NCBI GenBank assembly: GCA_964016885.1 | Contig: OZ024743.1 | Span: 297,786,001-297,850,000, forward strand | Reading direction: 5' to 3' | From: Eledone cirrhosa | Lineage: Eukaryota | DNA length: 64,000 nucleotides | Shown: positions 2,173 to 63,615 of the stretch, one piece after another | How the letters are laid out: each line of letters opens with the position of its first letter | Numbering within the stretch: position 1 is the first letter of the stretch | Notes under the pieces: model-generated | Databases searched by the model: none | What the model was told of the DNA's origin: nothing | The model's input: the letters and a program-made list of their open reading frames with translations, nothing else | Position numbers and translations under genes: made by a program

Positions 2173-2254
2173 CGACGAAGATGAGATTCAAACTCATGCG
2201 GCACGATCCCAATGGTTTAGCAGTCCATCGCCTAAACCACTCGGCCACCTCGTC
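2173..2254 (-). tRNA. trnS-GCT: tRNA-Ser(GCT), probably defective
   Basis: 82 nt GACGAGG..CTTCGTCG with long variable arm; T-loop TTTGAAT (C56T), anticodon stem ATGGA/ACCAT mismatch; T5 terminator. Confidence 0.8.
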
Positions 2255-2727
2255 AATTTTGATAAGAAAAGTGGAACTCTTCACATAGAAAACTGAAGTT
2301 TGAAATAAACGTTTATGAATATAATCGCTTGAAAGTTGATAATTTGGTGATAGAAGAATGTCAGCATTCTTATTCTATGATAGTATGGGAGAACGAAAGA
2401 TTACCAACTATTTTAAAGTATGAAAGGAGATAATCACTAAAATTGTTTTAAGTTATTTTATGGTTGTGTTTAAGAAACCTAAGACTGGTTTTAAGGGAAG
2501 ACAGATTGGAATTAAGATTTCCCCCAGACCAACATCGAATGATAACATCTCTTCTATGCTATTACAATTTACATGATTTCCAGTGAAATTGAATTAAATA
2601 TCCAAATGTTAGTTAATTTTCCGGACAAAATGTTGTCATCGACACGGAAGAATTAGAGTGACATTCAACGATAATATTGTCTAAAACATACATACACTAA
2701 TTTAAATTGACAACCATTGACTGAACT

Positions 2728-2800
2728 GGGCTTGTGGCGCAATGGATAACGCGCCTGACTACGGATCAGGAGATTCCAGGTTCGACTCCTGGCAAGCTCG
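2728..2800 (+). tRNA. trnR-ACG: tRNA-Arg(ACG)
   Basis: Array-consensus intact cloverleaf. Confidence 0.94.
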
Positions 2801-3355
2801 AAAGACCTTCATTTTGAAGTAGATGTATCAAAATGTTTTTAAATTCATTTTATTTTCACTATATATCTTGCGTATTAGATAGTTATGTATATATAATTTT
2901 GCATTTATTTAAACAATATACATTCTATAGAGAGTTTACTTCATATATTTAACCGATACTTCAAGTTCTGTTATAAATACTGCTATCTAAACAAATAAAA
3001 ATCACATCTTTTCTTCTGCTATTGCTACTTGTTCTCATTCACCATATATCGTAGATGAGATAGAGATTCATACATACACTACAAACTATCATACTAATCA
3101 CCATAAACAACCTTATTATTGATAATCTAATAGAAAATCATAGTAAAATAAAACAAGTTAATTGAAATCTACTGTGTTTTATTGAGTAATTGAAATATCA
3201 AACAATGATAGTTCGATTAAAATCAAATAAATAAAATAGAAAATACATTATTGTAATTTTCGAAGAAAAACGGTTCGCAATCACGTCGAAACTTCCCAAT
3301 AAGCGATGAAATGTAATTACAATTAGTAGCCTACCTTGTCCTGTTCTTATAAAAA

Positions 3356-3869
3356 CCCTAACCCTAACCCTAACCCTAACCCTAACCCTAACCCTAACCC
3401 CAACCCTAACCCTAACCCTAACCCCAACCCTAACCCTAACCCTAACCCCAACCCTAACCTAACCCTAACCCCAACCCTAACCCTAACCCTAACCTCAACC
3501 CTAACCCTAAACCTAACCCCAACCCCAACCCTAACCCCAACCCCAACCCCAACCCTAACCCTAACCCCAACCCCAACCCCAACCCCAACCCCAACCCTAA
3601 CCCTAACCCTAACCCTAACCCTAACCCTAACCCTAACCCTAACCCCAACCCTAACCCTAACCCTAACCCTAACCCTAACCCCAACCCCAACCCTAACCCC
3701 AACCCTAACCCTAACCCTAACCCTAACCCTGACCCCAAACCTAACCCTAACCCCAACCCTAACCCTAACCCTAACCCCAACCCTAACCCTAACCCTAACC
3801 CTAACCCTAACCCCATCCCTAACCCTAACCCTAACCCTAACCCTAACCCTAACCCTAACCCTAACCCTT
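3356..3869 (+). repeat. Interstitial telomeric tract, 514 bp
   Basis: Direct; same junctions. Confidence 0.98.
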
Positions 3870-4749
3870 TACAATTCAAAAGGGAATATTTACAAAATTA
3901 CATGGAATCATGATGGCAGAATTTCCCTTAGATGCACGTAAAAGACGTGATAATAGAAATATTTCAAACCGAGCCGTCTTTAAAATATGGTGAGTATATT
4001 ACTCCAGGCATCATTTGTATTACAGTAATACTACCATTCACAAAATTAACTTGTGCTAATAAAGGGTAACATTTTCACAATGAACGTTACATTTGTAAAA
4101 CCTCTCTACTCAAATGCTTTCCTATGACGTCACAACATATATATTTTTATATTTAGATTGGACAAATTAGTTTAGCTTTTCTCACTTTAGTCAAGAAATG
4201 AGAACATCGCTAAAGAAGGAAATAAGCTGATATAGTAAGGTAGTGTTTAAGATAGTGTGTAAATAGTGTTGAAATCGAATGAAGAGGACATTTGGTTAAA
4301 CACTGAATGTGACTAATAATGGATTGAAATGCTCCAATTTTTACTTTCAGATCTCTAGCATTCCTGTACTTTCCATTTCTATTTCTTGATAATCAAATGG
4401 TCTATTTTATTTTTAACATAGCAAGAAAGAGTTTCAATCTTGTAGTTTCGTTATTGTTTCTTTATATTTGTGAGATCATATCTAACAATGTATACAAACT
4501 ATCTCTGAATATACTTTTAAAAGAATATATTGCATACATGAGTTCATGATAATTAGATGTAGTCATTGACGAGAGGAAAGAAGCGCTGAGAGTGAGAGAA
4601 ACTGGAAAACACGCAAAACCAAAGATATTGTTAGACAAATTATTGCCTTTTCAAATGAAAAATAATGAGAATAAAAGAATCGAGCGTGTAAGGAATTGAA
4701 TATTAAATAAGACTTACTAGACTAAACTTAAATATTATGGCAAAAACTG

Positions 4750-4831
4750 CGACGAAGATGAGATTCAAACTCATGCGGCACGATCCCAATGGTTTAGCAG
4801 TCCATCGCCTAAACCACTCGGCCACCTCGTC
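4750..4831 (-). tRNA. trnS-GCT: tRNA-Ser(GCT), probably defective
   Basis: Same lesions as copy at 2173. Confidence 0.8.
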
Positions 4832-5304
4832 AATTTTGATAAGAAAAGTGGAACTCTTCACATAGAAAACTGAAGTTTGAAATAAACGTTTATGAATATA
4901 ATCGCTTGAAAGTTGATAATTTGGTGATAGAAGAATGTCAGCATTCTTATTCTATGATAGTATGGGAGAACGAAAGATTACCAACTATTTTAAAGTATGA
5001 AAGGAAATAATCACTAAAATTGTTTTAAGTTATTTTATGGTTGTGTTTAAGAAACCTAAGGCTAGTTTTAAGGGAAGACAGATTGGAATTAAGATTTCCC
5101 CCAGACCAACATCGAATGATAACATCTTTTCTATGCTATTACAATTTACATGATTTCCAATGAAATTGAATTAAATATCCAAATGTTAGTTAATTTTCCG
5201 GACAAAATGTTGTCATCGACACGGAAGAATTAGAGTGACATTGAACGATAATATTGTCTAAAACATACATACACAAATTTAAATTGACAACCATTTACTG
5301 AACT

Positions 5305-5377
5305 GGGCTTGTGGCGCAATGGATAACGCGCCTGACTACGGATCAGGAGATTCCAGGTTCGACTCCTGGCAAGCTCG
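5305..5377 (+). tRNA. trnR-ACG: tRNA-Arg(ACG)
   Basis: Consensus cloverleaf. Confidence 0.94.
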
Positions 5378-5932
5378 AAAGACCTTCATTTTGAAGTAGA
5401 TGTATCAAAATGTTTTTAAATTCATTTTATTTTCACTATATATCTTGCGTATTAGATAGTTATGTATATATAATTTTGCATTTATTAAAACAATATACAT
5501 TCTATAGAGAGTTTACTTCATATATTTAACCGATACTTCAAGTTCTGTTATAAATACTGCTATCTAAACAAATAAAAATCACATCTTTTCTTCTGCTATT
5601 GCTACTTGTTCTCATTCACCATATATCGTAGATGAGATAGAGATTCATACATACACTACAAACTATCATACTAATCACCATAAACAACCTTATTATTGAT
5701 AATCTAAGAGAAAATCATAGTAAAATAAAACAAGTTAATTGAAATCTACTGTGTTTTATTGAGTAATTGAAATATCAAACAATGATAGTTCGATTAAAAT
5801 CAAATAAATAAAATAGAAAATACATTATTGTAATTATCGAAGAAAAACGGTTCGCAATCACGTCGAAACTTCCCAATAAGCGATGAAATGTAATTACAAT
5901 TAGTAGCCTACCTTGTCCTGTTCTTATAAAAA

Positions 5933-6291
5933 CCCTAACCCTAACCCTAACCCTAACCCTAACCCTAACCCTAACCCTAACCCTAACCCTAACCCTAACC
6001 CTAACCCCAACCCTAACCCTAACCCTAACCCCAACCTTAACCCTAACCCTAACCCCAACCCTAACCCTAACCCTAACCCTAACCCTAAACCTAACCCTAA
6101 CCCCAACCCCAACCCTAACCCCAACCCTAACCCTAACCCTAACCCTAACCCTAACCCCAACCCTTACCCTAACCCCAACCCTAACCCTAACCCTAACCCC
6201 AACCCTAACCCTAACCCTAACCCTAACCCTAACCCCAACCCTAACCCTAACCCTAACCCTAACCCTAACCCTAACCCTAACCCTAACCCTT
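5933..6291 (+). repeat. Interstitial telomeric tract, 359 bp (contracted)
   Basis: Direct; same junctions. Confidence 0.98.
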
Positions 6292-7171
6292 TACAATTCA
6301 AAAGGGAATATTTACAAAATTAGATGGAATCATGATGGCAGAATTTCCCTTAGATGCACGTAAAAGATGTGATAATAGAAATATTTCAAACCGAGCCGTC
6401 TTTAAAATATGGTGAGTATATTACTCCAGGCATCATTTGTATTACAGTAATACTACCATTGACAAAATTAACTTGTGCTAATAAAAGGTAACATTTTCAC
6501 AATGAACGTTACATTTGTAAAACCTCTCTACTCAAATGCTTTCCTATGACGTCACAACATATATATTTTTATATTTAGATTGGACAAATTAGTTTAGCTT
6601 TTCTCACTTTAGTCAAGAAATGAGAACATCGCTAAAGAAGGAAATAAGCTGATATAGTAAGGTAGTGTTTAAGATAGTGTGTAAATAGTGTTGAAATCGA
6701 ATGAAGAGGACATTTGGTTAAACACTGAATGTGACTAATAATGGATTGAAATGCTCCAATTTTTACTTTCAGATCTCTAGCATTCCTGTACTTTCCATTT
6801 CTATTTCTTGATAATCAAATGGTCTATTTTATTTTTAACATAGCAAGAAAGAGTTTCAATCTTGTAGTTTCGTTATTGTTTCTTTATATTTGTGAGATCA
6901 TATCTAACAATGTATACAAACTATCTCTGAATATACTTTTAAAAGAATATATTGCATACATGAGTTCATGATAATTAGATGTAGTCATTGACGAGAGGAA
7001 AGAAGCGCTGAGAGTGAGAGAAACTGGAAAACACGCAAAACCAAAGATATTGTTAGACAAATTATTGCCTTTTCAAATGAAAAATAATGAGAATAAAAGA
7101 ATCGAGCGTGTAAGGAATTGAATATTAAATAAGACTTACTAGACTAAACTTAAATATTATGGCAAAAACTG

Positions 7172-7253
7172 CGACGAAGATGAGATTCAAACTCATGCGG
7201 CACGATCCCAATGGTTTAGCAGTCCATCGCCTAAACCACTCGGCCACCTCGTC
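7172..7253 (-). tRNA. trnS-GCT: tRNA-Ser(GCT), probably defective
   Basis: Same lesions as copy at 2173. Confidence 0.8.
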
Positions 7254-7726
7254 AATTTTGATAAGAAAAGTGGAACTCTTCACATAGAAAACTGAAGTTT
7301 GAAATAAACGTTTATGAATATAATCGCTTGAAAGTTGATAATTGTGTGATAGAAGAATGTCAGCATTCTTATTCTATGATAGTATGGGAGAACGAAAGAT
7401 TACCAACTATTTTAAGGTATGAAAGGAAATAATCACTAAAATTGTTTTAAGTTATTTTATGGTTGTGTTTAAGAAACCTAAGGCTAGTTTTAAGGGAAGA
7501 CAGATTGGAATTAAGATTTCCCCCAGACCAACATCGAATGATAACATGTTTTCTATGCTATTACAATTTACATGATTTCCAATGAAATTGAATTAAATAT
7601 CCAAATGTTAGTTAATTTTCCGGACAAAATGTTGTCATCGACACGGAAGAATTAGAGTGACATTCAACGATAATATTGTCTAAAACATACATACACTAAT
7701 TTAAATTGACAACCATTTACTAAACT

Positions 7727-7799
7727 GGGCTTGTGGCGCAATGGATAACGCGCCTGACTACGGATCAGGAGATTCCAGGTTCGACTCCTGGCAAGCTCG
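7727..7799 (+). tRNA. trnR-ACG: tRNA-Arg(ACG)
   Basis: Consensus cloverleaf. Confidence 0.94.
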
Positions 7800-8354
7800 A
7801 AAGATCTTCATTTTGAAGTAGATGTATCAAAATGTTTTTAAATTCATTCTATTTTCACTATATATCTTGCGTATTAGATAGTTATGTATATATAATTTTG
7901 CATTTATTAAAACAATATACATTCTATAGAGAGTTTACTTCATATATTTAACCGATACTTCAAGTTCTGTTATAAATACTGCTATCTAAACAAATAAAAA
8001 TCACATCTTTTCTTCTGCTATTGCTACTTGTTCTCATTCACCATATATCGTAGATGAGATAGAGATTCATACATACACTACAAACTATCATATTAATCAC
8101 CATAAACAACCTTATTATTGATAATCTAATAGAAAATCATAGTAAAATAAAACAAGTTAATTGAAATCTACTGTGTTTTATTGAGTAATTGAAATATCAA
8201 ACAATGATAGTTCGATTAAAATCAAATAAATAAAATAGAAAATACATTATTGTAATTTTCGAAGAAAAACGGTTCGCAATCACGTCGAAACTTCCCAATA
8301 AGCGATGAAATGTAATTACAATTAGTAGCCTACCTTGTCCTGTTCTTATAAAAA

Positions 8355-8881
8355 CCCTAACCCTAACCCTAACCCTAACCCTAACCCTAACCCTAACCCT
8401 AACCCTAACCCTAACCCCAACCCTAACCCTAACCCTAACCGCAACCCTAACCCTAACCCTAACCCCAACCCTAACCCTAACCCCAACCCTAACCCTAACC
8501 CTAACCTCAACCCTAACCCTAACCCTAACCCCAACCCCAAACCTAACCCTAACCCCAACCCCAACCCCAACCCTAATCCTAACCCCAACCCCAACCCCAA
8601 CCCCAACCCCAACCCTAACCCTAACCCTAACCCTAACCCTAACCCTAACCCCAACCCTAACCCTAACCCTAACCCTAACCCTAACCCCAACCCCAACCCT
8701 AACCCCAACCCTAACCCTAACCCTAACCCTAACCCTAACCCTAACCCCAACCCTAACCCTAACCCCAACCCTAACCCTAACCCTAACCCCAACCCTAACC
8801 CTAACCCTAACCCTAACCCTAACCCCAACCCTAACCCTAACCCTAACCCTAACCCTAACCCTAACCCTAACCCTAACCCTT
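8355..8881 (+). repeat. Interstitial telomeric tract, 527 bp
   Basis: Direct; same junctions. Confidence 0.98.
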
Positions 8882-9761
8882 TACAATTCAAAAGGGAATA
8901 TTTACAAAATTACATGGAATCATGATGGCAAAATTTCCCTTAGATGCACGTAAAAGACGTGATAATAGAAATATTTCAAACCGAGCCGTCTTTAAAATAT
9001 GGTGAGTATATTACTCCAGGCATCATTTGTATTACAGTAATACTACCATTCACAAAATTAACTTGTGCTAATAAAGGGTAACATTTTCACAATGAACGTT
9101 ACATTTGTAAAACCTCTCTACTCAAATGCTTTCCTATGACGTCACAACATATATATTTTTATATTTAGATTGGACAAATTAGTTTAGCTTTTCTCACTTT
9201 AGTCAAGAAATGAGAACATCGCTAAAGAAGGAAATAAGCTGATATAGTAAGGTAGTGTTTAAGATAGTGTGTAAATAGTGTTGAAATCGAATGAAGAGGA
9301 CATTTGGTTAAACACTGAATGTGACTAATAATGGATTGAAATGCTCCAATTTTTACTTTCAGATCTCTAGCATTCCTGTACTTTCCATTTCTATTTCTTG
9401 ATAATCAAATGGTCTATTTTATTTTTAACATAGCAAGAAAGAGTTTCAATCTTGTAGTTTCGTTATTGTTTCTTTATATTTGTGAGATCATATCTAACAA
9501 TGTATACAAACTATCTCTGAATATACTTTTAAAAGAATATATTGCATACATGAGTTCATGATAATTAGATGTAGTCATTGACGAGAGGAAAGAAGCGCTG
9601 AGAGTGAGAGAAACTGGAAAACACGCAAAACCAAAGATATTGTTAGACAAATTATTGCCTTTTCAAATGAAAAATAATGAGAATAAAAGAATCGAGCGTG
9701 TAAGGAATTGAATATTAAATAAGACTTACTAGACTAAACTTAAATATTATGGCAAAAACTG

Positions 9762-9843
9762 CGACGAAGATGAGATTCAAACTCATGCGGCACGATCCCA
9801 ATGGTTTAGCAGTCCATCGCCTAAACCACTCGGCCACCTCGTC
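9762..9843 (-). tRNA. trnS-GCT: tRNA-Ser(GCT), probably defective
   Basis: Same lesions as copy at 2173. Confidence 0.8.
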
Positions 9844-10316
9844 AATTTTGATAAGAAAAGTGGAACTCTTCACATAGAAAACTGAAGTTTGAAATAAACG
9901 TTTATGAATATAATCGCTTGAAAGTTGATAATTTGGTGATAGAAGAATGTCAGCATTCTTATTCTATGATAGTATGGGAGAACGAAAGATTACCAACTAT
10001 TTTAAAGTATGAAAGGAAATAATCACTAAAATTGTTTTAAGTTATTTTATGGTTGTGTTTAAGAAACCTAAGACTGGTTTTAAGGGAAGACAGATTGGAA
10101 TTAAGATTTCCCCCAGACCAACATCGAATGATAACATCTTTTCTATGCTATTACAATTTACATGATTTCCAATGAAATTGAATTAAATATCCAAATGTTA
10201 GTTAATTTTCCGGACAAAATGTTGTCATCGACACGGAAGAATTAGAGTGACATTCAACGATAATATTGTCTAAAACATACATACACTAATTTAAATTGAC
10301 AACCATTTACTGAACT

Positions 10317-10389
10317 GGGCTTGTGGCGCAATGGATAACGTGCCTGACTACGGATCAGGAGATTCCAGGTTCGACTCCTGGCAAGCTCG
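10317..10389 (+). tRNA. trnR-ACG: tRNA-Arg(ACG)
   Basis: Cloverleaf, C25T wobble. Confidence 0.92.
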
Positions 10390-10944
10390 AAAGATCTTCA
10401 TTTTGAAGTAGATGTATCAAAATGTTTTTAAATTCATTCTATTTTCACTATATATCTTGCGTATTAGATAGTTATGTATATATAATTTTGCATTTATTAA
10501 AACAATATACATTCTATAGAGAGTTTACTTCATATATTTAACCGATACTTCAAGTTCTGTTATAAATACTGCTATCTAAACAAATAAAAATCACATCTTT
10601 TCTTCTGCTATTGCTACTTGTTCTCATTCACCATATATCGTAGATGAGATAGAGATTCATACATACACTACAAACTATCATACTAATCACCATAAACAAC
10701 CTTATTATTGATAATCTAATAGAAAATCATAGTAAAATAAAACAAGTTAATTGAAATCTACTGTGTTTTATTGAGTAATTGAAATATCAAACAATGATAG
10801 TTCGATTAAAATCAAATAAATAAAATAGAAAATACATTATTGTAATTTTCGAAGAAAAACGGTTCGCAATCACGTCGAAACTTCCCAATAAGCGATGAAA
10901 TGTAATTACAATTAGTAGCCTACCTTGTCCTGTTCTTATAAAAA

Positions 10945-11483
10945 CCCTAACCCTAACCCTAACCCTAACCCTAACCCTAACCCTAACCCTAACCCTAACC
11001 CTAACCCCAACCCTAACCCTAACCCTAACCCCAACCCTAAACCTAACCCTAACCCCAACCCTAACCCTAAGCCTAACCCCAACCCTAACCCTAACCCTAA
11101 CCTCAAACCTAACCCTAACCCTAACCCCAACCCCAACCCTAACCCTAACCCCAACCCCAACCCCAACCCTAACCCTAACCCCAACCCCAACCCCAACCCC
11201 AACCCCAACCCTAACCCTAACCCTAGCCCTAACCCTAACCCTAACCCTAACCCCAACCCTAACCCTAACCCTAACCCTAACCCTAACCCCAACCCCAACC
11301 CTAACCCCAACCCTAACCCTAACCCTAACCCTAACCCTAACCCCAACCCTAACCCTAACCCCAACCCTAACCCTAACCCTAACCCCAACCCTAACCCTAA
11401 CCCTAACCCTAACCCTAACCCCAACCCTAACTCTAACACTAACCCTAACCCTAACCCTAACCCTAACCCTAACCCTAACCCTT
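10945..11483 (+). repeat. Interstitial telomeric tract, 539 bp
   Basis: Direct; same junctions. Confidence 0.98.
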
Positions 11484-12363
11484 TACAATTCAAAAGGGAA
11501 TATTTACAAAATTAGATGGAATCATGATGGCAGAATTTCCCTTAGATGCACGTAAAAGACGTGATAATAGAAATATTTCAAACCGAGCCGTCTTTAAAAT
11601 ATGGTGAGTATATTACTCCAGGCATCATTTGTATTACAGTAATACTACCATTGACAGAATTAACTTATGCTAATAAAAGGTAACATTTTCACAATGAACG
11701 TTACATTTGTAAAACCTCTCTACTCAAATGCTTTCCTATGACGTTACAACATATATATTTTTATATTTAGATTGGACAAATTAGTTTAGCTTTTCTCACT
11801 TTAGTCAAGAAATGAGAACATCGCTAAAGAAGGAAATAAGCTGATATAGTAAGGTAGTGTTTAAGATAGTGTGTAAATAGTGTTGAAATCGAATGAAGAG
11901 GACATTTGGTTAAACACTGAATGTGACTAATAATGGATTGAAATGCTCCAATTTTTACTTTCAGATCTCTAGCATTCCTGTACTTTCCATTTTTATTTCT
12001 TGATAATCAAATGGTCTATTTTATTTTTAACATAGCAAGAAAGAGTTTCAATCTTGTAGTTTCGTTATTGTTTCTTTATATTTGTGAGATCATATCTAAC
12101 AATGTATACAAACTATCTCTGAATATACTTTTAAAAGAATATATTGCATACATGAGTTCATGATAATTAGATGTAGTCATTGACGACAGGAAAGAAGCGC
12201 TGAGAGTGAGAGAAACTGGAAAACACGCAAAACCAAAGATATTGTTAGACAAATTATTGCCTTTTCAAATGAAAAATAATGAGAATAAAAGAATCGAGCG
12301 TGTAAGGAATTGAATATTAAATAAGACTTACTAGACTAAACTTAAATATTATGGCAAAAACTG

Positions 12364-12445
12364 CGACGAAGATGAGATTCAAACTCATGCGGCACGATCC
12401 CAATGGTTTAGCAGTCCATCGCCTAAACCACTCGGCCACCTCGTC
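12364..12445 (-). tRNA. trnS-GCT: tRNA-Ser(GCT), probably defective
   Basis: Same lesions as copy at 2173. Confidence 0.8.
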
Positions 12446-12918: not shown

Positions 12919-12991
12919 GGGCTTGTGGCGCAATGGATAACGCGCCTGACTACGGATCAGGAGATTCCGGGTTCGAATGCTGGCAGGCTCG
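12919..12991 (+). tRNA. trnR-ACG: tRNA-Arg(ACG) variant, possibly defective
   Basis: T-arm CCGGG-TTCGAAT-GCTGG (C61G mismatch). Confidence 0.75.
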
Positions 12992-53313: not shown

Positions 53314-53395
53314 GACGAGGTGGCCGAGTGGTTAAGGCGATGGACTGCTAATCCATTGGGATTTTCCCGCGTGAGTTCGGATCTCATCTTCGTCG
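53314..53395 (+). tRNA. trnS-GCT: tRNA-Ser(GCT), A58G variant
   Basis: Stems intact; T-loop TTCGGAT. Confidence 0.82.
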
Positions 53396-54367
53396 AAGTT
53401 TTTGCCATGATATTTAAGTTTAGTCAGGTATCTCTTATTTAATCTTCAATTCATTACACGCTTATTTCTTTTATTCATCATTATTTATCCTTTAAAAGGG
53501 CAATAATTTATCTGTAAATATATTTTTCGTTCTGCGTGTTTTCCAATTTCTCCCAAACTAAGCGCTTGTTTTCTCTCGTCAATGACTACATCTAATTATT
53601 CTGAACACATGTACGCAATAGATTCTTTAAGAAATATATTCAAAGATATTTTCACAGCTTGTTAGCCTTGATCTCACAAATATGAAGAAACAATAACAAA
53701 ACTACAAGATTGAAGCTCTTTCTTGCTATGTTAAAAGTAAAATAGACAATTTGATTATCAAGAAACTGAACTGGAAAGTAGAGCAATACAGGAGTTCGAA
53801 AAGTGAAAATCAGAACAGTTCAATCCGTTATTAGTCACATTCAGCGTTTAGCCAAATGTTCTCTTAATTTGATTTCAACACTATTTACACACTATCTTAC
53901 ACACTACCTTACTATATCAGATTATCTCCTTCTTTAGTGATGTCCTCGTTTATTGACTAAAGTGAGAAATGCTAAACTAATTCGTCCAATCTAAATTTAC
54001 AGACATATATATTGTGACGTCATAGGAAAGCATTTGAGTAGAGAGGTGTTACGAACGTAACGGTCATTCTGAAAATGTTACCATTTATCAACACAAGTTA
54101 ATTTTGTTAATGGTAGTTTTACTGTAATACAATTGATGCCTGGAATAATATACTCACCATATTTTAAAGACGGCTCGGTTTGAAATATTTCTATTATCAC
54201 GTCTTTTACGTGAATTTAAGGGAAATTCTGCCATCATGATTCCATCTAATTTTGGAAAATTTGCTCTTAAATTCGTTGGCGATTCAAATGAGTATTTCTA
54301 TAAGAACGCTGAAAATTTAGAAACGGGATAAGGTGGGCTAATAATTGTAGTTTTATTTTATCGTTTA

Positions 54368-55499
54368 CTAGCAGTAAAGCCCGGCGTTGCTTGGGGTCGC
54401 TCAGTAGCTGTGTTAAAGTTACAATGTTAAGTTTCTTTTTTGGCTTAAAAACTGTAGTGTTTACTGTGCAGACTTGCATGTGGTGTTTTTGATTAATATT
54501 CCCTCATCCAACAATATGCCTTATGAAGTTAAGAAAACATAACGATAACCCGAATGTTATAACAAAAGAGGATGCTGGGGATAAAAACTGCACTGGTTAT
54601 TTATTAACAAAGATCGAAAATGTAAACACTGCAACGCAAAGAAAAACATTAGCGTAACCAAATTATCAGTTATGTCTGTCTGCACGCCTATATCACCTCT
54701 CTGCACGACTATCTGTCAGCACGCCTATATCACCTCTCTGCACGACTGTCTGTCTGCACGCCTATATCAACTCTCTGCACGACTGTCTGTCTGCACGCCT
54801 ATATCACCTCTCTGTACGACTGTCTGTCTACACGCCTATATCACCTCTCTGCACGACTGTCTGTCTGCACGCCTATATCACCTCTCTGCACGACTGTCTG
54901 TCTGCACGCCTATATCAACTCTCTGCACGACTGTCTGTCTGCACGCCTATATCACCTCTCTGTACGACTGTCTGTCTACACGCCTATATCACCTCTCTGC
55001 ACGACTGTCTGTCTGCACGACTGTCTGTCTGCACGCCTAACGACGAAATATTTGCTTGTTTTACGTAGTCTTTAAATAGACTTGTTTTCAAGTAAAAATA
55101 TTGTTTTAAAATACTTTTAAATGGAAATGAAGAAAAACGGAAGCTTTGTGTTCGAACTGATGAATTTTGCAGGTCAATATTTTGCTGGCTCGACAACTCT
55201 TCGTGTATTGTGTTAATGTCATTTTTAACGCTGAGAAAGCCAGCGTAATTTTTTACGTAAGACGCTCAATGTAAACAGAACAAAGGGAAATAACTGATAA
55301 CTTACGCTCAAAAATCGATACATTATATTCGATTTCGTCACATAGGGTGGGTCAATTTGAAATATTTTTTTCCGATGTCTTCGCTAGGGCTCAATGTACA
55401 AGTATAGCAATTTCGGTGCAATTCCGTGAGAGATTCTAAGATGAGATGTGTGCCAAAAATCGATAGACAGACAGACAACCACAGTTTTATATATATAGA
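54368..55499 (-). mobile_element. Non-autonomous Helitron, 1132 bp
   Basis: Minus strand 5'-TC(TATATAT..), 3'-CTAG with GC-rich hairpin just upstream, inserted between A and T, no TSD; empty site TCGTTTA|TTAGG at ~60867. Confidence 0.9.
54674..55039 (+). repeat. 37-bp minisatellite x9 plus partial, inside Helitron
   Basis: GTCTGTCTGCACGCCTATATCACCTCTCTGCACGACT. Confidence 0.95.
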
Positions 55500-56004
55500 T
55501 TAGGATGTTTCGACATGAAAGCGAACCGTTTTTCTTCGAAAATTACAATAACGTTGCATTTTCAATTGTATTTATTTGATTTTAATCGAACTATCATTGT
55601 TTGATATTACAATTGGTCGATAGATCACAGTAGATTTCAATTAACTTGTTTAGTTTTACTATAAATTTCTATTAGAATTGCAATAATAAGATTGTTTATT
55701 GTGATTTGTATGATTGTTTGTAGTGTATGCATGAATCTCTATCTCGTCTACGATATATGGTGAATGATAACATGTAGAAATAACAGCACGATATATGTGA
55801 ATGTTATTTGATTTAGATAGCATTATTTATAGCAGAACTTGAAATATCAGTTATATATATAAAGTAAAGTCTCTATAGAATGTATATTGTTTAGATAATT
55901 GCCAGAATATATATACATAAATATCTAATATCGAAAATATGTAATGAAAATAAAAATGATTTTTTAAAGAATTATTATTCATCTACTTCAAAATATCGGT
56001 GTTT

Positions 56005-56077
56005 CGAGCTTGTCATGAAACCAATCTGGAATCTCCTGATCCGTAGTCAGGCGCGTTATCCATTGCACCACATGCAC
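56005..56077 (-). pseudogene. trnR-ACG: tRNA-Arg(ACG) pseudogene
   Basis: B-box destroyed, acceptor mismatches. Confidence 0.87.
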
Positions 56078-56530
56078 AGGTTACAAACTGACTGTCAATT
56101 TAAATTACTGTAGGTATGTTTTAGACAATACAATCGTTGAATGTCACTCTAATTCTTCCGTGTCGATGACAAACTTTTGTCCACAAGATTAGCTAATATG
56201 TGGATAATGAATTCAATTTCACTGGAAATCAGGTAAATTATAATTGCATAGAAGGGTGTTACCATTCAATTTTCGTGAGTGTGAAATTTTAATTCCAATC
56301 CGTTCTCCCTTAAAACCAGTCTTAGGTTTCTTAAACATAACCAATCTTAGTGATTATTTCCTCCTTAATTTAAAATAGTTGGTAAATATTGTTTCTCCCA
56401 TACTATCATAGATGGAGAATGCTGAAATTCTTCTATGACCAAATTATCAACTTTCAAGCGATTATATTCATAAACGTTTATCTCAAATTACAGTTCTATA
56501 TGTGAAGAATTCCACTTTCGTTTCCAACTT

Positions 56531-56612
56531 GACGAGGTGGCCGAGTGGTTAAGGCGATGGACTGCTAATCCATTGGGATTTTCCCGCGTGAGTTCGAATC
56601 TCATCTTCGTCG
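56531..56612 (+). tRNA. trnS-GCT: tRNA-Ser(GCT), intact
   Basis: Same sequence as 51145 copy. Confidence 0.94.
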
Positions 56613-57584
56613 ACGTTTTTGCCATTATATTTAAGTTAAGTCAAGTATCTCTTATTTAATCTTCAATTCATTACACGCTTATTTCTTTTATTCATCATTA
56701 TTTATCCTTTAAAAGGGCAATAATTTATCTGTAAATATATTTTTCGTTCTGCGTGTTTTCCAATTTCTCCCAAACTAAGCGCTTGTTTTCTCTCGTCAAT
56801 GACTACATCTAATTATTCTGAACACATGTACGCAATAGATTCTTTAAGAAATATATTCAAAGATATTTTCACAGCTTGTTAGACATGATCTCACAAATAT
56901 GATGAAACAATAACGAAACTACAAGATTGAAGCTCTTTCTTGCTATGTTAAAAGTAAAATAGACAGTTTGATTATCAAGAAACTGAACTGGAAAGTAGAG
57001 CAATACAGGAGTTCGAAAAGTGAAAATCAGAACATTTCAATCCGTTATTAGTCTCATTTAGCGTTTAGCCAAATGTTCTCTTAATTTGATTTCAACACTA
57101 TTTACACACTATCTTAAACACTACCTTTCTATATCAGATTATCTCCTTCTTTAGTGATGTCCTCGTTTATTGACTAAAGTGAGAAATGCTAAACTAATTC
57201 GTCCAATCTAAATTTACAGATATATATATTGTGACGTCATAGGAAAGCATTTGAGTACAGAGGTTTTACGAACGTAACGTTCATTCTGAAAATGTTACCA
57301 TTTATCAACACAAGTTAATTTTGTTAATGGTAGTTTTACTGTAATACAATTGATGCCTGGAATAATATACTCACCATATTTTAAAGACGGCTCGGTTTGA
57401 AATATTTCTATTATCACGTCTTTTACGTGAATTTAAGGGAAATTCTGCCATCATGATTCCATCTAATTTTGGAAAATTTGCTCTTAAATTCGTTGGCGAT
57501 TCAAATGAGTCTTTCTATAAGAACGCTGAAAATTTAGAAACGGGACAAGGTGGGCTAATAATTGTAGTTTTATTTTATCGTTTA

Positions 57585-58568
57585 CTAGCAGTAAAGCCCG
57601 GCGTTGCTCGGGGTCGCTCAGTAGCTGTGTTAAAGTTACAGTGTTAAGTTTCTTTTTTGGCTTAAAAACTGTAGTGTTTACTGTGCAGACTTGCATGTGG
57701 TGTTTTTGATTAATATTCCCTCAACCAACAATATGCCTTATGAAGTTAAGAAAACATAACGATAACCCGAATGTTATAACAAAAGAGGATGCTGGGGATA
57801 AAAACTGCACTGGAATTTATTAACAAAGATCGAAAATGTAAACACTGCAACGCAGAGAAAAACATTAGCGTAACCAAATTATCAGTTATGTCTGTCTGCA
57901 CGCCTATATCACCTCTCTGCACGACTGTCTGTCTGCACGCCTATATCACCTCTCTGCACGACTGTCTGTCTGCACGCCTATATCAACTCTCTGCACGACT
58001 GTCTGTCTGCACGCCTATATCACCTCTCTGTACGACTGTCTGTCTACACGCCTATATCACCTCTCTGCACGACTGTCTGTCTGCACGACTGTCTGTCTGC
58101 ACGCCTAAAGACGAAATATTTGCTTGTTTTACGTAGTCTTTAAATAGACTTGTTTTCAAGTAAAAATATTGTTTTAAAATGCTTTTAAATGGAAATGAAA
58201 CAAAACGGAAGCTTTGTGTTCGAACTGATGAATTTTGCAGGTCAATATTTTGCTGGCTCGACAACTCTTCGTGTATTGTGTTAATGTCATTTTTAACGCT
58301 GAGAAAGCCAGCGTAATTTTTTACGTAAGACGCTCAATGTAAACAGAACAAAGGGAAATAACTGATAACTTACGCTCAAAAATCGATACATTATATTCGA
58401 TTTCGTCACATAGGGTGGGTCAATTTGAAATATTTTTTTTCCGATGTCTTCGCTAGGGCTCAATGTACAAGTATAGCAATTTCGGTGCAATTCCGTGAGA
58501 GATTCTAAGAGGAGATGTGTGCCAAAAATCGATAGACAGACAGACAACCACAGTTTTATATATATAGA
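57585..58568 (-). mobile_element. Non-autonomous Helitron, 984 bp (duplicate of 54368 copy)
   Basis: Same termini and same unit site; hairpin CCCG-AGCAACGC-CGGG upstream of CTAG. Confidence 0.9.
57890..58107 (+). repeat. 37-bp minisatellite x5 plus partial, inside Helitron
   Basis: Same unit as 54674. Confidence 0.95.
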
Positions 58569-58853
58569 TTAGGATGTTTCGACATGAAAGCGAACCGTTT
58601 TTCTTCGAAAATTACAATAACGTTGCATTTTCAATTGTATTTATTTGATTTTAATCGAACTATCATTGTTTGATATTACAATTGGTCGATAGATCACAGT
58701 AGATTTCAATTAACTTGTTTAGTTTTACGATAAATTTCTATTAGAATTGCAATAATAAGATTGTTTATTGTGATTTGTATGATTGTTTGTAGTGTATGCA
58801 TGAATCTCTATCTCGTCTACGATATATGGTGAATGATAACATGTAGAAATAAC

Positions 58854-59055
58854 TGTTTCTACTTTAGGTACAAGGCCAGCAATTACCCAGTGCATTACTG
58901 GTACTTTATTTTATCGACCCCGTAAGGATGAAAGGCAAAGTCAACCTCGGCGGGATTTGAACTCAGATCGTAAAGGGACGTAACTATGCTGGAAAGCATG
59001 GCGTCCGCCCCTCTACCGATACTGCCAATCCACCGCCTAAAAGTGACAATCCACC
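58854..59055 (-). mobile_element. tRNA-derived SINE, ~200 bp, 12-bp TSD TGTAGAAATAAC
   Basis: Minus strand: A-box TGGCAGTATCGG, B-box GAGTTCAAATCC; TSD 58842-58853 and 59056-59067; empty in other units. Confidence 0.9.
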
Positions 59056-59287
59056 TGTAGAAATAACAGCACGATATATGTGAATGTTATTTGATTTAGA
59101 TAGCAGTATTTATAGCAGAACTTGAAATATCAGTTATATATATAAAGTAAAGTCTCTATAGAATGTATTTTGTTTAGATAATTGCCAGAATATATATACA
59201 TAAATATCTAATATCCAAAATATGTAATGAAAAGAAAAATGATTTTTTAAAGAATTATTATTCATCTACTTCAAAATATCAGTGTTT

Positions 59288-59360
59288 CGAGCTTGTCATG
59301 AAACCAATCTGGAATCTCCTGATCCGTAGTCAGGCGCGTTATCCATTGCACCACAAGCAC
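59288..59360 (-). pseudogene. trnR-ACG: tRNA-Arg(ACG) pseudogene
   Basis: B-box destroyed (ATTGGTTTC). Confidence 0.87.
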
Positions 59361-59813
59361 AGGTTACAAACTGACAGTCAATTTAAATTACTGTAGGTAT
59401 GTTTTAGACAATACAATCGTTGAATGTCACTCTAATTCTTCCGTGTCGATGACAAACTTTTGTCCACAAGATTAGCTAACATTTGGATAATGAATTCAAT
59501 TTCACTGGAAATCAGGTAAATTATAATTGCATAGAAGGGTGTTACCATTCAATTTTCGTGAGTCTGGAATTTTAATTCCAATCCGTTCTCCCTTAAAACC
59601 AGTCTTAGGTTTCTTAAACATAACCAATCTTAGTGATAATTTCCTCCTTAATTTAAAATAGTTGGTAAACATTGTTTTTCCCATACTATCATTGATGGAG
59701 AATGCTGAAATTCTTCTATGACCAAATTATCAACTTTCAAGCGATTATATTCATAAACGTTTATCTCAAATTACAGTTCTATATGTGAAGAATTCCACTT
59801 TCGTTTCCAACTT

Positions 59814-59895
59814 GACGAGGTGGCCGAGTGGTTAAGGCGATGGACTGCTAATCCATTGGGATTTTTCCGCGTGAGTTCGAATCTCATCTTCGTCG
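59814..59895 (+). tRNA. trnS-GCT: tRNA-Ser(GCT), intact
   Basis: One G-U in variable arm; boxes intact. Confidence 0.92.
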
Positions 59896-61372
59896 ACGTT
59901 TTTGCCATGATATTTAAGTTTAGTCAGGTATCTCTTATTTAATCTTCAATTCATTACACGCTTATTTCTTTTATTCATCATTATTTTTCCTTTAAAAGGG
60001 CAATAATTTATCTGTAAATATATTTTTCGTTCTGCGTGTTTTCCAATTTCTCCCAAACTAAGCGCTTGTTTTCTCTCGTCAATGACTACATCTAATTATT
60101 CTGAACACATGTACGCAATAGATTCTTTAAGAAATATATTCAAAGATATTTTCACAGCTTGTTAGCCTTGATCTCACAAATATGAAGAAACAATAACAAA
60201 ACTACAAGATTGAAGCTCTTTCTTGCTATGTTAAAAGTAAAATAGACAATTTGATTATCAAGAAACTGAACTGGAAAGTAGAGCAATACAGGAGTTCGAA
60301 AAGTGAAAATCAGAACAGTTCAATCCGTTATTAGTCACATTCAGCGTTTAGCCAAATGTTCTCTTAATTTGATTTCAACACTATTTACACACTATCTTAC
60401 ACACTACCTTACTATATCAGATTATCTCCTTCTTTAGTGATGTCCTCGTTTATTGACTAAAGTGAGAAATGCTAAACTAATTCGTCCAATCTAAATTTAC
60501 AGATATATATATTGTGACGTCATAGGAAAGCATTTGAGTACAGAGGTGTTACGAACGTAACGGTCATTCTGAAAATGTTACCATTTATCAACACAAGTTA
60601 ATTTTGTTAATGGTAGTTTTACTGTAATACAATTGATGCCTGGAATAATATACTCACCATATTTTAAAGACGGCTCGGTTTGAAATATTTCTATTATCAC
60701 GTCTTTTACGTGCATTTAAGGGAAATTCTGCCATCATGATTCCATCTAATTTTGGAAAATTTGCTCTTAAATTCGTTGGCGATTCAAATGAGTCTTTCTA
60801 TAAGAACGCTGAAAATTTAGAAACGGGACAAGGTGGGCTAATAATTGTAGTTTTATTTTATCGTTTATTAGGATGTTTCGACATGAAAGCGAACCGTTTT
60901 TCTTCGAAAATTACAATAACGTTGCATTTTCAATTGTATTTATTTGATTTTAATCGAACTATCATTGTTTGATATTACAATTGGTCGATAGATCACAGTA
61001 GATTTCAATTAACTTGTTTAGTTTTACTATAAATTCCTATTAGAATTGCAATAAGAAGATTGTTTATTGTGATTTGTATGATTGTTTGTAGTGTATGCAT
61101 GAATCTCTATCTCGTCTACGATATATGGTGAATGATAACATGTAGAAATAACAGCAGGTTATATGTGAATGTTATTTGATTTAGATAGCAGTATTTATAG
61201 CAGAACTTGAAATATCAGTTATATATATAAAGTAAACTCTCTATAGAATGTATATTGTTTAGATAATTGCCAAAATATATATACATAAATATCTAATATC
61301 CAAAATATGTAATGAAAAGAAAAATGATTTTTGAAAGAATTATTATTCATCTACTTCAAAATATCGGTGTTT

Positions 61373-61445
61373 CGAGATTGTCAGGAAACGAATCTGGAAT
61401 CTCCTGATCCGTAGTCAGGCGCGTTATCCATTGCACCACAAGCAC
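61373..61445 (-). pseudogene. trnR-ACG: tRNA-Arg(ACG) pseudogene
   Basis: B-box ATTCGTTTC; acceptor mismatches. Confidence 0.85.
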
Positions 61446-61899
61446 AGGTTACAAACTGACTGTCAATTTAAATTACTCTAGGTATGTTTTAGACAATACA
61501 ATCGTTGAATGTCACTCTAATTCATCCGTGTCGATGACAAACTTTTGTCCACAAGATTAGCTACCATTTGGATAGTGAATTCAATTTCACTGGAAATCAG
61601 CTAAATTATAATTGCATAGAAGGGGTGCTACCATTCAATTTACGTGAGTGTGAAATTTTAATTCCAATCCGTTCTCCCTTAAAACCAGTCTTAGGTTTCT
61701 TAAACATAACCAATCTTAGTGATTATTTCCTCCTTAATTTAAAATAGTTGGTAAACATTGTTTTTCCCATACTATCATTGATGGAGAATGCTGAAATTCT
61801 TCTATGACCAAATTATCAACTTTCAAGCGATTATATTCATAAACGTTTATCTCAAATTACAGTTCTATATGTGAAGAATTCCACTTTCGTTTCCAACTT

Positions 61900-61981
61900 G
61901 ACGAGGTGGCCGAGTGGTTAAGGCGATGGACTGCTAATCCATTGGGATTTTTCCGCGTGAGTTCGAATCTCATCTTCTTCG
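61900..61981 (+). tRNA. trnS-GCT: tRNA-Ser(GCT), acceptor-stem variant
   Basis: Boxes intact; G70T mismatch (CTTCTTCG). Confidence 0.82.
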
Positions 61982-62081
61982 ACGTTTTTGCCGTGATATT
62001 TAAGTTTAGTCAAGTATCTCTTATTTAATCTTCAATTCATTACACGCTTATTTCTTTTATTCATCATTATTTATCCTTTAA

Positions 62082-62150
62082 CGGGTCGATAAAATAAAGT
62101 ACCAGTAATACACTGGAATAATTGCTGGCCTTGTGCCAAAAGTAGAAACA
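62082..62150 (+). mobile_element. 5'-truncated SINE, duplicate of 51327 copy
   Basis: Same sequence and TSD (62066-62081, 62151-62166). Confidence 0.9.
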
Positions 62151-63542
62151 ATTATTTATCCTTTAAAGGGGCAATAATTTATCTGTAAATATATTTTTCG
62201 TTCTGCGTGTTTTCCAATTTCTCCCAAACTAAGCGCTTGTTTTCTCTCGTCAATGACTACATCTAATTATTCTTAACACATGTACGCAATAGATTCTTTA
62301 AGAAATATATTCAAAGATATTTTCACAGCTTGTTAGAACTGATCTCACAAATATGAAGAAACAATAACGAAACTACAAGATTGAAGCTCTTTCTTGCTAT
62401 GTTAAAAGTAAAATAGATAATTTGATTATCAAGAAACTGAACTGGAAAGTAGAGCAATACAGGAGTTCGAAAAGTGAAGATCAGAAAAGTTCAATCCGTT
62501 ATTAGTCACATTCAGCGTTTAGCCAAATGTTCTCTTAATTTCATTTCAACACTATTTACACACTATCTTACACACTACCTTACTATATCAGATTATCTCC
62601 TTCTTTAGTGATGTCCTCGTTTATTGACTAAAGTGAGAAATGCTAAACTAATTCGTCCAATCTAAATTTACAGATATTTATATTGTGACGTCATAGGAAA
62701 GCATTTGAGTAGAGAGGTTTTACGAACGTAACGGTCATTCTTAAAATGTTACCATTTATCAACACAAGTTAATTTTGTTAATGGTAGTTTTACTGTAATA
62801 CAATTGATGCCTGGAATAATATACTCACCATCTTTTAAAGACGGCTCGGTTTGAAATATTTCTATTATCACGTCTTTTACGTGCATCTAAGGGAAATTCT
62901 GCCATCATGATTCCATCTAATTTTGGATAATTTGCTCTTAAATTCGTTGGCGATTCAAATGAGTCTTTCTATAAGAACGCTGAAAATTTAGAAACGGGAC
63001 AAGGTGGGCTTATATTTGTAGTTTTATTTTATCGTTTATTAGGTATTTCGAGATGAAAGCGAACAGTTTTTCTTCGAAAATTACAATAACGTTGCATTTT
63101 CAATTGTATTTATTTGATTTTAATCGAACTATCATTGTTTGATATTACAATTGTTCGATAGATCACAGTAGATTTCAATTAACTTGTTTAGTTTTACTAT
63201 AAATTTTTATTAGAATTGCAATAATAAGATTGTTTATTGTGATTTGTATGATTGTTTGTAGTGTATGCATGAATCTCTATCTCGTCTACGATATATGGTG
63301 AATGATAACATGTAGAAATAACAGCACGATATATGTGAATGTTATTTGATTTAGATAGCAGTATTTATAGCAGAACTTGAAATATCAGTTATATATATAA
63401 AGTAAAGTCTCTATAGAATGTATATTGTTTAGATAATTGCCAGAATATATATACATAAATATCTAATATGCAAAATATGTAATGAAAAGAAAAATGATTT
63501 TTTAAAGAATTATTATTCCTCTACTTCAAAATATCGGTGTTT

Positions 63543-63615
63543 CGAGCTTGTCATGAAACCAATCAGGAATCTCCTGATCCGTAGTCAGGCGCGTTATCCA
63601 TTGCACCACAAGCAC
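63543..63615 (-). pseudogene. trnR-ACG: tRNA-Arg(ACG) pseudogene
   Basis: B-box destroyed. Confidence 0.87.

What the first reader, a model, noticed from the sequence alone, without database searches (positions are those of the whole stretch)
2173..63615. Reciprocal degeneration: left array keeps tRNA-Arg, inverted array keeps tRNA-Ser
Seen: all 22 left Ser copies have T-loop TTTGAAT (C56T) and a variable-arm mismatch, most also with anticodon-stem or A-box lesions, whereas most left Arg copies are clean cloverleaves. In the right array all 6 Arg copies have wrecked B-boxes (ATTCGTTTC or ATTGGTTTC), whereas Ser copies keep paired stems and GTTCG(A/G)ATC. Known: C56 of the B-box is critical for TFIIIC binding. 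Inference: array-level subfunctionalisation of a two-gene unit, which decouples Arg-ACG and Ser-GCT dosage so each can vary through its own copy number.
Basis: partly seen in the sequence, partly recalled or inferred. Interest (0 to 1): 0.72.

Follow-up and report, generated by a model that had tools for sequence, protein, structure and literature searches.

The report
Paired tRNA arrays with reciprocal pseudogenes
Two neighbouring, oppositely oriented repeat arrays descend from one two-gene tRNA unit; one kept an intact arginine tRNA gene and the other an intact serine tRNA gene, which looks like ordinary loss of redundant genes after duplication, later multiplied by repeat expansion.

Summary
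The pattern is real but weaker than its copy counts suggest.

All 6 right Arg-ACG genes have broken B-boxes; 17 of 24 left Arg are clean. Correction: only 3 of 5 right Ser are clean (one A58G, one acceptor-stem mismatch).

The arrays are two separate clades, 14% apart and 1-2.5% diverse within. The shared lesions are therefore two ancestral inactivations that were amplified, not 28 events, and reciprocity alone is a coin flip.

What exceeds chance: the kept gene has 0-1 changes on its stem against 5-6 expected, while the lost gene matches the neutral expectation. The left Arg locus also shows a mutation excess like that of actively transcribed tRNA genes (18/103 variable sites against 4/112 for left Ser); right Ser does not.

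Best reading: an inverted duplication, passive complementary gene loss, then independent expansion. Nothing here supports adaptive dosage decoupling, and expression and other genomic copies were untestable. New variant of known tRNA arrays; moderate interest.

The parts
1..50311 (+). Left (L) tandem array; unit 2082-2083 bp (2422-2602 bp where a telomeric tract is inserted); each unit holds tRNA-Ser-GCT (-) and tRNA-Arg-ACG (+) head to head, 473 bp apart; runs off the left edge
   Evidence: mean pairwise distance 1.1% over 22 units; one clade 100/100
144..49426 (+). 23 regular left tRNA-Arg-ACG genes (73 bp; starts 144, 2728, 5305, 7727, 10317, 12919, 15515, 17597, 19680, 22282, 24364, 26447, 28530, 30612, 32695, 34777, 36860, 38942, 41025, 43107, 45189, 47272, 49354); 17 clean
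   Evidence: lesions in 12919 (C61G), 26447 (G52C), 30612/34777/38942 (G65A, and the first T4 terminator lost), 45189 (C32A)
2173..48880 (-). 22 left tRNA-Ser-GCT genes (82 bp), all with A21T, C56T and a variable-arm G:G mismatch; probable pseudogenes; T5 terminator retained
   Evidence: (terminators)
30057..30138 (-). Least damaged left Ser type (also 34222-34303, 38387-38468, 44634-44715): anticodon stem and A-box intact, 57.4 bits
49529..50311 (+). Partial edge unit L24, created with a 304-bp duplication; holds a damaged Arg gene
   Evidence: left-type at 91 and right-type at 6 of the diagnostic sites
49658..49730 (+). Damaged left tRNA-Arg-ACG in the edge unit (G7C, T-stem disrupted; 38.1 bits)
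50040..50308 (.). 269-bp loop between the inverted arms; 8.8% from left units and 18% from right units, so left behind by homogenisation; the junction is old
50305..50311 (.). Inversion junction (left unit position ~654 joined to right unit position ~381); Arg genes converge on it
50310..64000 (-). Right (R) inverted array; units 2085-3283 bp, 4-unit higher-order repeat of about 10.75 kb; runs off the right edge
   Evidence: 98.3% identity at the higher-order offset; mean pairwise distance 2.5%, 14.2% from left
50618..50690 (-). Right Arg-ACG pseudogene, B-box ATTCGTTTC
   Evidence: 26 bits
52788..52860 (-). Right Arg-ACG pseudogene, B-box ATTGGTTTC
   Evidence: 25.8 bits
56005..56077 (-). Right Arg-ACG pseudogene, B-box ATTGGTTTC
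   Evidence: 21.3 bits
59288..59360 (-). Right Arg-ACG pseudogene, B-box ATTGGTTTC
   Evidence: 25.8 bits
61373..61445 (-). Right Arg-ACG pseudogene, B-box ATTCGTTTC
   Evidence: 32.1 bits
63543..63615 (-). Right Arg-ACG pseudogene, B-box ATTGGTTTC
   Evidence: 26 bits
51145..51226 (+). Right tRNA-Ser-GCT, clean
   Evidence: 62.3 bits; folds as a cloverleaf
53314..53395 (+). Right tRNA-Ser-GCT with A58G B-box lesion
   Evidence: 57.2 bits
56531..56612 (+). Right tRNA-Ser-GCT, clean
   Evidence: 62.3 bits
59814..59895 (+). Right tRNA-Ser-GCT, clean (G:T wobble in the variable arm)
   Evidence: 62.3 bits
61900..61981 (+). Right tRNA-Ser-GCT with C3:T70 acceptor-stem mismatch
   Evidence: 56.7 bits
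2708..2727 (+). Inner 5' flank of left Arg (example copy): hypervariable across left units
   Evidence: 6 of 20 sites variable against 0.92 expected, P=0.0004

Best explanation
An ancestral 2.1-kb unit carrying divergent tRNA-Ser-GCT and tRNA-Arg-ACG genes was duplicated in inverted orientation, probably at the junction near 50,310 (inferred). The two arms then stopped exchanging sequence and were homogenised separately (shown: two clades, no exchange tracts). Redundancy let one gene per arm be lost early: Ser on the left by promoter and structure lesions (C56T, A21T, variable arm), Arg on the right (G53A, A58T, G2T, G65A). The lesions are shown; loss of function is inferred from known TFIIIC contacts and tRNA invariants. 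The surviving gene in each arm stayed under purifying selection, or at least stayed intact (shown statistically on the stems). Each arm then expanded by unequal exchange, copying the dead gene along as a passenger (shown: nested near-identical units and higher-order repeats). New lesions keep arising in the kept genes (7 of 24 left Arg, 2 of 5 right Ser), as in birth-and-death turnover. The left array is probably an active source of tRNA-Arg-ACG. The right array is probably, with less support, a source of tRNA-Ser-GCT. Independent copy number is a by-product, not a shown purpose.
For: Clades and distances: left 1.1%, right 2.5%, between 14.2%; spacer-only tree 100/100, stem 0.144. Left sites carrying the right allele: 12, scattered singly, no tracts. 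Fixed or stem differences: Arg 6 (5 break pairs or invariants, all on the right; C59T unpolarised); Ser 6 (3 break pairs or invariants, all on the left; 5 of 6 are left-derived against the Ser-GCT reference in PMC10359600, compared by eye). Fisher p 0.008 to 0.08. Expected per stem if neutral: 5.2-5.9; P(0)=0.003-0.006, P(<=1)=0.019-0.036. Both genes together: 12-13 changes against 22.3 if both stems were neutral (P=0.013-0.024), matching 11.2 for one neutral stem. Activity proxy defined in PMC6130373: left Arg locus 18/103 variable sites against left Ser 4/112 (p=0.001) and spacer 74/1686; 5' flank 6/20. Repeated in the edge unit left out of that test: 10/103 against 6/406 (p=0.0002). Left Arg variants never reach 4 of 22 copies (0 of 11) against 23 of 74 spacer sites (p=0.03) and 3 of 3 left Ser variants (p=0.003). 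Old junction: loop 24/272 diverged against 6/406 in the arm. C56 and G53 are TFIIIC contact positions.
Against: Only two independent events, and equal stem lengths are assumed (no spacer outgroup). Right Ser shows no within-array mutation excess (5/111; 5' flank 1/19), and 2 of 5 copies are damaged. The dead right Arg gene is also somewhat variable (8/73, P=0.08; 5/103 against 6/404, p=0.05), so part of the Arg signal may be intrinsic mutability or conversion rather than transcription. Dropping the two units with a shared 3-site haplotype weakens the left test to p=0.02. Tolerated changes among left Arg variants are 7 of 11 against 38% expected, only p=0.07. Four left Ser copies still score 57.4 bits. 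No C56T measurement was seen. No expression data. Polarising lesions by structure is partly circular.
Confidence: 0.6

Rival explanations
1. Largely neutral satellite-like arrays. The tRNAs are supplied from elsewhere in the genome; the 'kept' genes stay intact by chance or by short conversions from functional paralogues, and one or both arrays (especially the right) are silent, as with the Arabidopsis Ser-Tyr-Tyr cluster.
For: Only two events. The right array tolerates transposon-like inserts, has 2 of 5 damaged Ser and no activity footprint. A three-site, structure-tolerated Arg haplotype is shared by non-sister units 12919 and 19680, so short conversion occurs. Arabidopsis clusters are silent and argued to expand neutrally (PMC7544208, PMC2886086; passages). 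If the host is a cephalopod (recalled, untested), tRNA-like copy numbers are very high (PMC6962438 passage).
Against: Both kept genes lack stem changes while their partners on the same stems have the neutral number. Conversion should repair dead and live copies alike. The 5'-flank excess at left Arg lies outside the gene and cannot come from paralogue conversion. There is no CpG depletion (o/e 0.94 and 1.09) and no CpG transition excess (16/46 against 11/37).
Confidence: 0.22
2. Adaptive dosage decoupling: the split was favoured or is maintained because Arg-ACG and Ser-GCT demand differ, and each array's length is tuned to it.
For: The arrays are separately homogenised and differ in intact copy number within the window (17 Arg, 3 Ser). 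Copy number correlates with codon use in several eukaryotes (PMC7544208 introduction passage).
Against: The passive route predicts everything seen. The window truncates both arrays, so the ratio means little. Lesion load in the kept genes is about 30-40%. In Entamoeba and Arabidopsis arrays, copy number did not track codon or residue usage.
Confidence: 0.1
3. Left Ser is hypomorphic rather than dead. C56T (G19:U56 wobble) and A21U reduce but do not abolish transcription, or the genes act as residual TFIIIC or boundary sites, so only right Arg is a true pseudogene and the reciprocity is lopsided.
For: Anticodon, discriminator G73, acceptor stem, T-stem and T5 terminator are intact in 22 of 22 left Ser. 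Four copies score 57.4 bits. Only 3 variable sites lie in 82 bp. A boundary role is proposed for the human 1q23.3 tDNA repeat.
Against: All 3 left Ser polymorphisms are disruptive and common (minor counts 4, 8 and 11 of 22). Stem changes match the neutral rate. There is no flank hypervariability. The three left Ser types folded all gave non-cloverleaf minimum-energy structures, whereas the clean right type gave a cloverleaf (weak evidence, because clean left Arg also misfolds).
Confidence: 0.08

Closest known systems
Arabidopsis Ser-Tyr-Tyr tRNA array (PMC2886086, PMC7544208; passages read)
   Same: Multi-gene tRNA unit amplified whole; concerted evolution; intercalated subfamilies; non-functional copies; most divergent sequence at array ends; expansion argued to be neutral.
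   Different: One array in the passages seen, with scattered pseudogenes, methylated and silent. Here two inverted sub-arrays have array-wide complementary lesions, no CpG depletion, and an activity-like footprint on left Arg.
Entamoeba tRNA arrays (PMC2652664; passages read)
   Same: Array units undergo fission, so genes once in one unit end up in separate arrays (for example Pro-TGG leaving [SPPPCK]); the outcome is the same partition of isotypes.
   Different: There the split is by excision and the paper reports no clear pseudogenes. Here the whole unit is kept and the lost gene remains as a decaying passenger.
Human 1q23.3 tDNA VNTR (PMC4041453; passages read)
   Same: Kilobase units with tRNA genes on both strands, about 98% identity, copy-number variable.
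   Different: GC-rich 7.3-kb five-gene unit with a CTCF site; 'pseudogene' occurs 0 times in the main text.
Duplication-degeneration-complementation / tandem duplication-random loss (named in listings and passages; models recalled)
   Same: Duplicate a multi-function block, then lose complementary members.
   Different: Here it acts on a nuclear Pol III cassette and is followed by separate amplification of each product. Mutual indispensability is untested.
Transcription-associated mutagenesis at tRNA genes (PMC6130373; parts 1-2 of 6 read)
   Same: Excess rare variants in the gene and inner 5' flank, with a conserved mature sequence, seen at left Arg.
   Different: Applied here among paralogous repeat units, not orthologues or populations; not seen at right Ser.

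Membership tests
Tandem multi-gene tRNA array | Head-to-tail kilobase units with a fixed set and order of tRNA genes | tested here: met
Tandem multi-gene tRNA array | Units homogenised within an array (concerted evolution, nested or higher-order expansion) | tested here: met
Tandem multi-gene tRNA array | Contains intact genes with A/B boxes and T-run terminators | tested here: met
   17 of 24 left Arg, 3 of 5 right Ser
Tandem multi-gene tRNA array | Copy-number variation between individuals; expression state | not testable with these tools
   single window; no eukaryotic genome or read collection
DDC-type subfunctionalisation / reciprocal loss | Two copies from one ancestral multi-function unit | tested here: met
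   full-length 83-88% homology in inverted orientation
DDC-type subfunctionalisation / reciprocal loss | Complementary degenerative mutations fixed in each copy | tested here: met
   met at sequence level, loss of function inferred
DDC-type subfunctionalisation / reciprocal loss | Retained function constrained in each copy | tested here: inconclusive
   stem tests support both; within-array tests support left Arg only
DDC-type subfunctionalisation / reciprocal loss | Both copies needed because no other redundant source exists | not testable with these tools
   needs a whole-genome tRNA census
tRNA-derived SINE or TRIM (Helenus/Ajax type) | tRNA-like sequence reduced to promoter boxes, mostly unable to give a tRNA | tested here: not met
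   full cloverleaves at 58-62 bits with terminators; family described in PMC10886601 passages
tRNA-derived SINE or TRIM (Helenus/Ajax type) | Paired LTRs, primer-binding site, target-site duplication around each unit | not tested
   units are contiguous, but no dedicated LTR/PBS search was run
Methylation-silenced tDNA cluster (Arabidopsis type) | Heavy CpG methylation (proxy: CpG depletion, CpG transition excess) | tested here: not met
   CpG o/e 0.94 and 1.09; 16/46 CpG against 11/37 GpC transitions, p=0.65; a proxy only

The most novel reading that the evidence does not exclude
These two arms are the genome's main suppliers of tRNA-Arg-ACG and tRNA-Ser-GCT. An inverted duplication plus reciprocal promoter loss turned one obligatory 1:1 two-gene array into two mutually indispensable single-product arrays whose lengths set each tRNA's dose independently and are selected. 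This would be fission of a tRNA array caught in progress, with the dead partner still in place as an internal neutral clock and the live gene readable from its mutational scar.
Probability: 0.15. Interest if true: 0.7.

Novelty: new variant of a known kind. Interest (0 to 1): 0.42.

Why it matters
If it holds, it shows a simple route by which linked tRNA isotypes in repeat arrays become separable: duplicate, lose complementary genes, amplify. That outcome is known from Entamoeba array fission, but there without the intermediates. The locus is also a convenient natural experiment. Live and dead genes sit 473 bp apart in dozens of near-identical units with diagnostic SNPs, so transcription-associated mutagenesis, the effect of C56T on a metazoan-type promoter, and selection on array copy number can be tested directly. 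It also warns annotators: ARAGORN of the 22 lesioned left Ser and 2 of the 6 right Arg as genes, and Rfam passes all 22 left Ser.

Tried and rejected
1. Counting copies as independent evidence (copy-level Fisher p=0.0009): rejected as pseudo-replication.

2. Methylation-driven decay, prompted by C56T and G49A both lying in CpG: no CpG depletion or transition excess.

3. Other RNA or protein genes in the unit. Rfam found only tRNA at gathering score over the whole window. In 45000-60000 and 61200-64000 it found only sub-threshold plastid-UTR overlaps on the tRNAs. The 23 stop-to-stop frames of 70 aa or more in 45000-60000 look like chance or minisatellite translations and were not searched against protein databases.

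4. Left-right gene conversion as the source of left T39 (Ser) and A65 (Arg): 12 right-type alleles are scattered with no tracts; unresolved between ancestral state, recurrence and very short conversion.

5. Sequencing or assembly error: the lesions are identical across units that differ elsewhere, and the window has no N.

6. Folding energies: uninformative, because clean left Arg does not give a cloverleaf minimum, and RNAalifold on 8 of 27 Ser copies showed no covariation.

7. The Ser part had a numbering slip; it was discarded apart from the terminator column and redone.

No listing described reciprocal pseudogenisation between paired nuclear tRNA arrays, or this Arg/Ser array. The library is open-access only, no supplements were opened, and most hits were seen as listings only. 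PMC13010820 was seen as abstract and outline only; PMC7919458 and 10.64898/2026.09.27.754811 as passages that added nothing.

9. No sequence collection was searched. Relatives elsewhere and the host's identity stayed unchecked.


Full report
VERDICT. The reciprocal pattern is in the sequence, with corrections. It is best read as two ancestral gene losses after an inverted duplication, later multiplied by repeat expansion. The dosage-decoupling purpose is not supported by anything testable here.

ANATOMY. The window is AT-rich, non-coding eukaryotic DNA (GC 30-37% per 2 kb; no N). It is filled by one repeat unit of about 2083 bp holding tRNA-Ser-GCT and tRNA-Arg-ACG head to head, 473 bp apart. 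A left array runs from the window start to about 50,311, with 24 Arg and 22 Ser genes. An inverted right array runs from there to the window end, with 6 Arg and 5 Ser genes. Rfam finds no other RNA family at gathering score. TTAGGG-type tracts are compatible with an animal; a resemblance of one insert to octopus SINEs is recalled and untested.

OBSERVATION. In addition 18 have A31:A39, 11 have G9C and 8 have C30:C40. Right Arg: 6 of 6 have G53A and A58T, 4 also C56G, and all have acceptor- and T-stem mismatches. Left Arg: 17 of 24 are clean. The degeneration is lopsided: right Arg scores 21-32 bits, left Ser 39-57 bits, and four left Ser copies equal the two damaged right copies.

IS IT MORE THAN CHANCE? 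I aligned 22 of the 24 left Arg-centred units (the first lacks its upstream part, the last is partial) and all 6 right units (2 partial), with the large inserts removed. Distances are 1.1% within left, 2.5% within right and 14.2% between. A tree from spacers alone gives two clades at 100/100 with a connecting branch of 0.144. The array-wide lesions therefore arose once on each stem: there are two events, and their being on opposite sides has prior probability one half.

The informative test is on the stems. Arg has 6 stem differences; 5 break a pair or an invariant base (C11T only weakens a pair to a wobble), all on the right. Ser has 6 fixed differences; 3 are such lesions, all on the left. 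Against the Ser-GCT reference printed in PMC10359600 (table passage, compared by eye) 5 of the 6 are left-derived and one loop base is right-derived or ambiguous. Fisher p runs from 0.008 to 0.08 with the assignment. A neutral stem should carry 5.2-5.9 changes per gene, so 0-1 on the kept side has P=0.003-0.036. The total of 12-13 fits one neutral stem per gene (11.2 expected), not two (22.3; P=0.013-0.024). This assumes equal stems, but each stem has its own control in the partner gene. It also suggests that both losses came early after the split.

ACTIVITY PROXY. PMC6130373 (parts 1-2 of 6 read) reports that active tRNA genes carry excess rare variants in the gene and in the 20 bp upstream. 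With that paper's windows, the left Arg locus has 18 of 103 sites variable, against 4 of 112 for left Ser (p=0.001) and 74 of 1686 for spacer. The 5' flank alone has 6 of 20 against 0.92 expected, and the gene 11 against 3.9 after GC adjustment (20 region-by-array tests were made). The edge unit, not in that test, repeats it: 10/103 against 6/406, though its changes are clustered. Left Arg gene variants stay rare (0 of 11 reach 4 copies; spacer 23 of 74; left Ser 3 of 3), as expected from mutation plus purging.

Against this: right Ser shows no such excess (5/111). The dead right Arg gene is itself moderately variable (8/73, P=0.08). Removing two units with a shared haplotype lowers the left contrast to p=0.02. 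The tolerated fraction of left Arg variants, 7 of 11 against 38%, is not significant. So activity of left Arg has indirect support; activity of right Ser rests on the stem test and 3 clean copies.

ORIGIN. The junction joins left unit position ~654 to right position ~381, leaving inverted arms around a 269-bp loop. In the edge unit the arm spacer is 1.5% from other left units, but the loop is 8.8% from them and 18% from right units, with the step at the arm end. The junction is thus at least about 60% as old as the left-right split. That fits, but does not prove, a fold-back inverted duplication at this spot. No exchange tracts between the arrays were seen; suppression of recombination by 14% divergence and inversion is the likely reason (established knowledge, not tested).

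MECHANISM OF LOSS. C56 and G53 are TFIIIC contact positions. C56G lowers yeast TFIIIC binding 370-fold (PMC11811891 passage), and G53 and the template guanine opposite C56 are listed as crucial (PMC11724288 passage). I saw no figure for C56T, so silence of left Ser is inferred; A21T and the stem mismatches would further impair folding and processing (textbook tRNA invariants, recalled). C56T and G49A sit in CpG, but there is no CpG depletion or transition excess, so methylation decay is not indicated.

COMPARISON. It is a member of the tandem multi-gene tRNA arrays on every feature I could test. It works like duplication-degeneration-complementation or tandem duplication-random loss, but mutual indispensability, which defines subfunctionalisation, could not be tested. 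The nearest cases are the Arabidopsis Ser-Tyr-Tyr array (pseudogenes, neutral expansion, silencing), Entamoeba array fission (same outcome by excision, no clear pseudogenes) and human 1q23.3, all seen as passages. Ten searches listed no report of array-wide reciprocal pseudogenisation. The library is open-access only and supplements were not opened, so this is weak evidence of absence.

SCORES. Best explanation 0.60; neutral or silent arrays 0.22; adaptive decoupling 0.10; left Ser hypomorphic 0.08. Novelty: new variant of a known kind. Interest 0.42: a clean and testable natural experiment, but made of known processes and two events. The bold reading (two indispensable, separately tuned single-product arrays) has probability about 0.15 and interest 0.7 if true.

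Noticed in passing
window 770-1291, 3354-3868, 5931-6290, 8353-8880, 10943-11482, 13545-14078, 20306-20845: Telomere-type (AACCCT)n tracts of 360-540 bp in 7 left units, all replacing the same 20 bp (empty site, for example, 16143-16162) and sharing variant patterns: one insertion, amplified with the unit. They cluster at the left end, in the orientation a left-hand telomere would have.
   Followed up: partly
window 50286-50311: The inversion junction falls within about 5 bp of the right edge of the same 20-bp site that the telomeric tract replaces in other units; possibly a break-prone site. Post hoc and unexplained.
   Followed up: partly
window 50040-50308: Homogenisation of the edge unit with the left array stops almost exactly where the inverted arm ends (differences step up from 50039-50058); cause unexplained.
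   Followed up: partly
window 30057-30684, 34222-34849, 38387-39014, 44634-45261: The four units with the least damaged left Ser all have a damaged Arg (G65A plus loss of the first T4 terminator in three; C13A and C32A in one): 4 of 4 against 2 of 18, nominal p=0.002 but only about two independent events. A small-scale echo of the reciprocity, probably chance.
   Followed up: partly
window 12919-12991 and 19680-19752: Non-sister units share a three-site Arg haplotype (A51G, C59A, A68G), all structure-tolerated; suggests short gene conversion, perhaps from another isodecoder.
   Followed up: partly
window 54368-55498 and 57585-58567: 1.0-1.1-kb non-coding insert at the same site in two right units, with a 37-bp minisatellite and no clear target duplication; non-autonomous Helitron-like by recalled end motifs.
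   Followed up: partly
window 58851-59056; 51315-51398; 62070-62153: 206-bp SINE-like insert with a 12-bp target-site duplication, and 84-bp truncated relatives (88%) in two other right units. Resemblance to octopus SINEs is recalled, not tested. All transposon-like inserts seen are in the right array.
   Followed up: partly
window 50312-64000; 26447-40551: Higher-order repeats: a 4-unit, ~10.75-kb period on the right (98.3%), and alternating units identical in their spacers on the left (30612/34777/38942 and 32695/36860), plus the pair 17597/24364.
   Followed up: yes
inner flanks of Arg, left against right: Left-right divergence is raised next to Arg (5' flank 7/20, P=0.007; 3' flank 4/10, P=0.024, against 12% in spacer) and less clearly next to Ser (4/19, 2/10).
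   Followed up: yes
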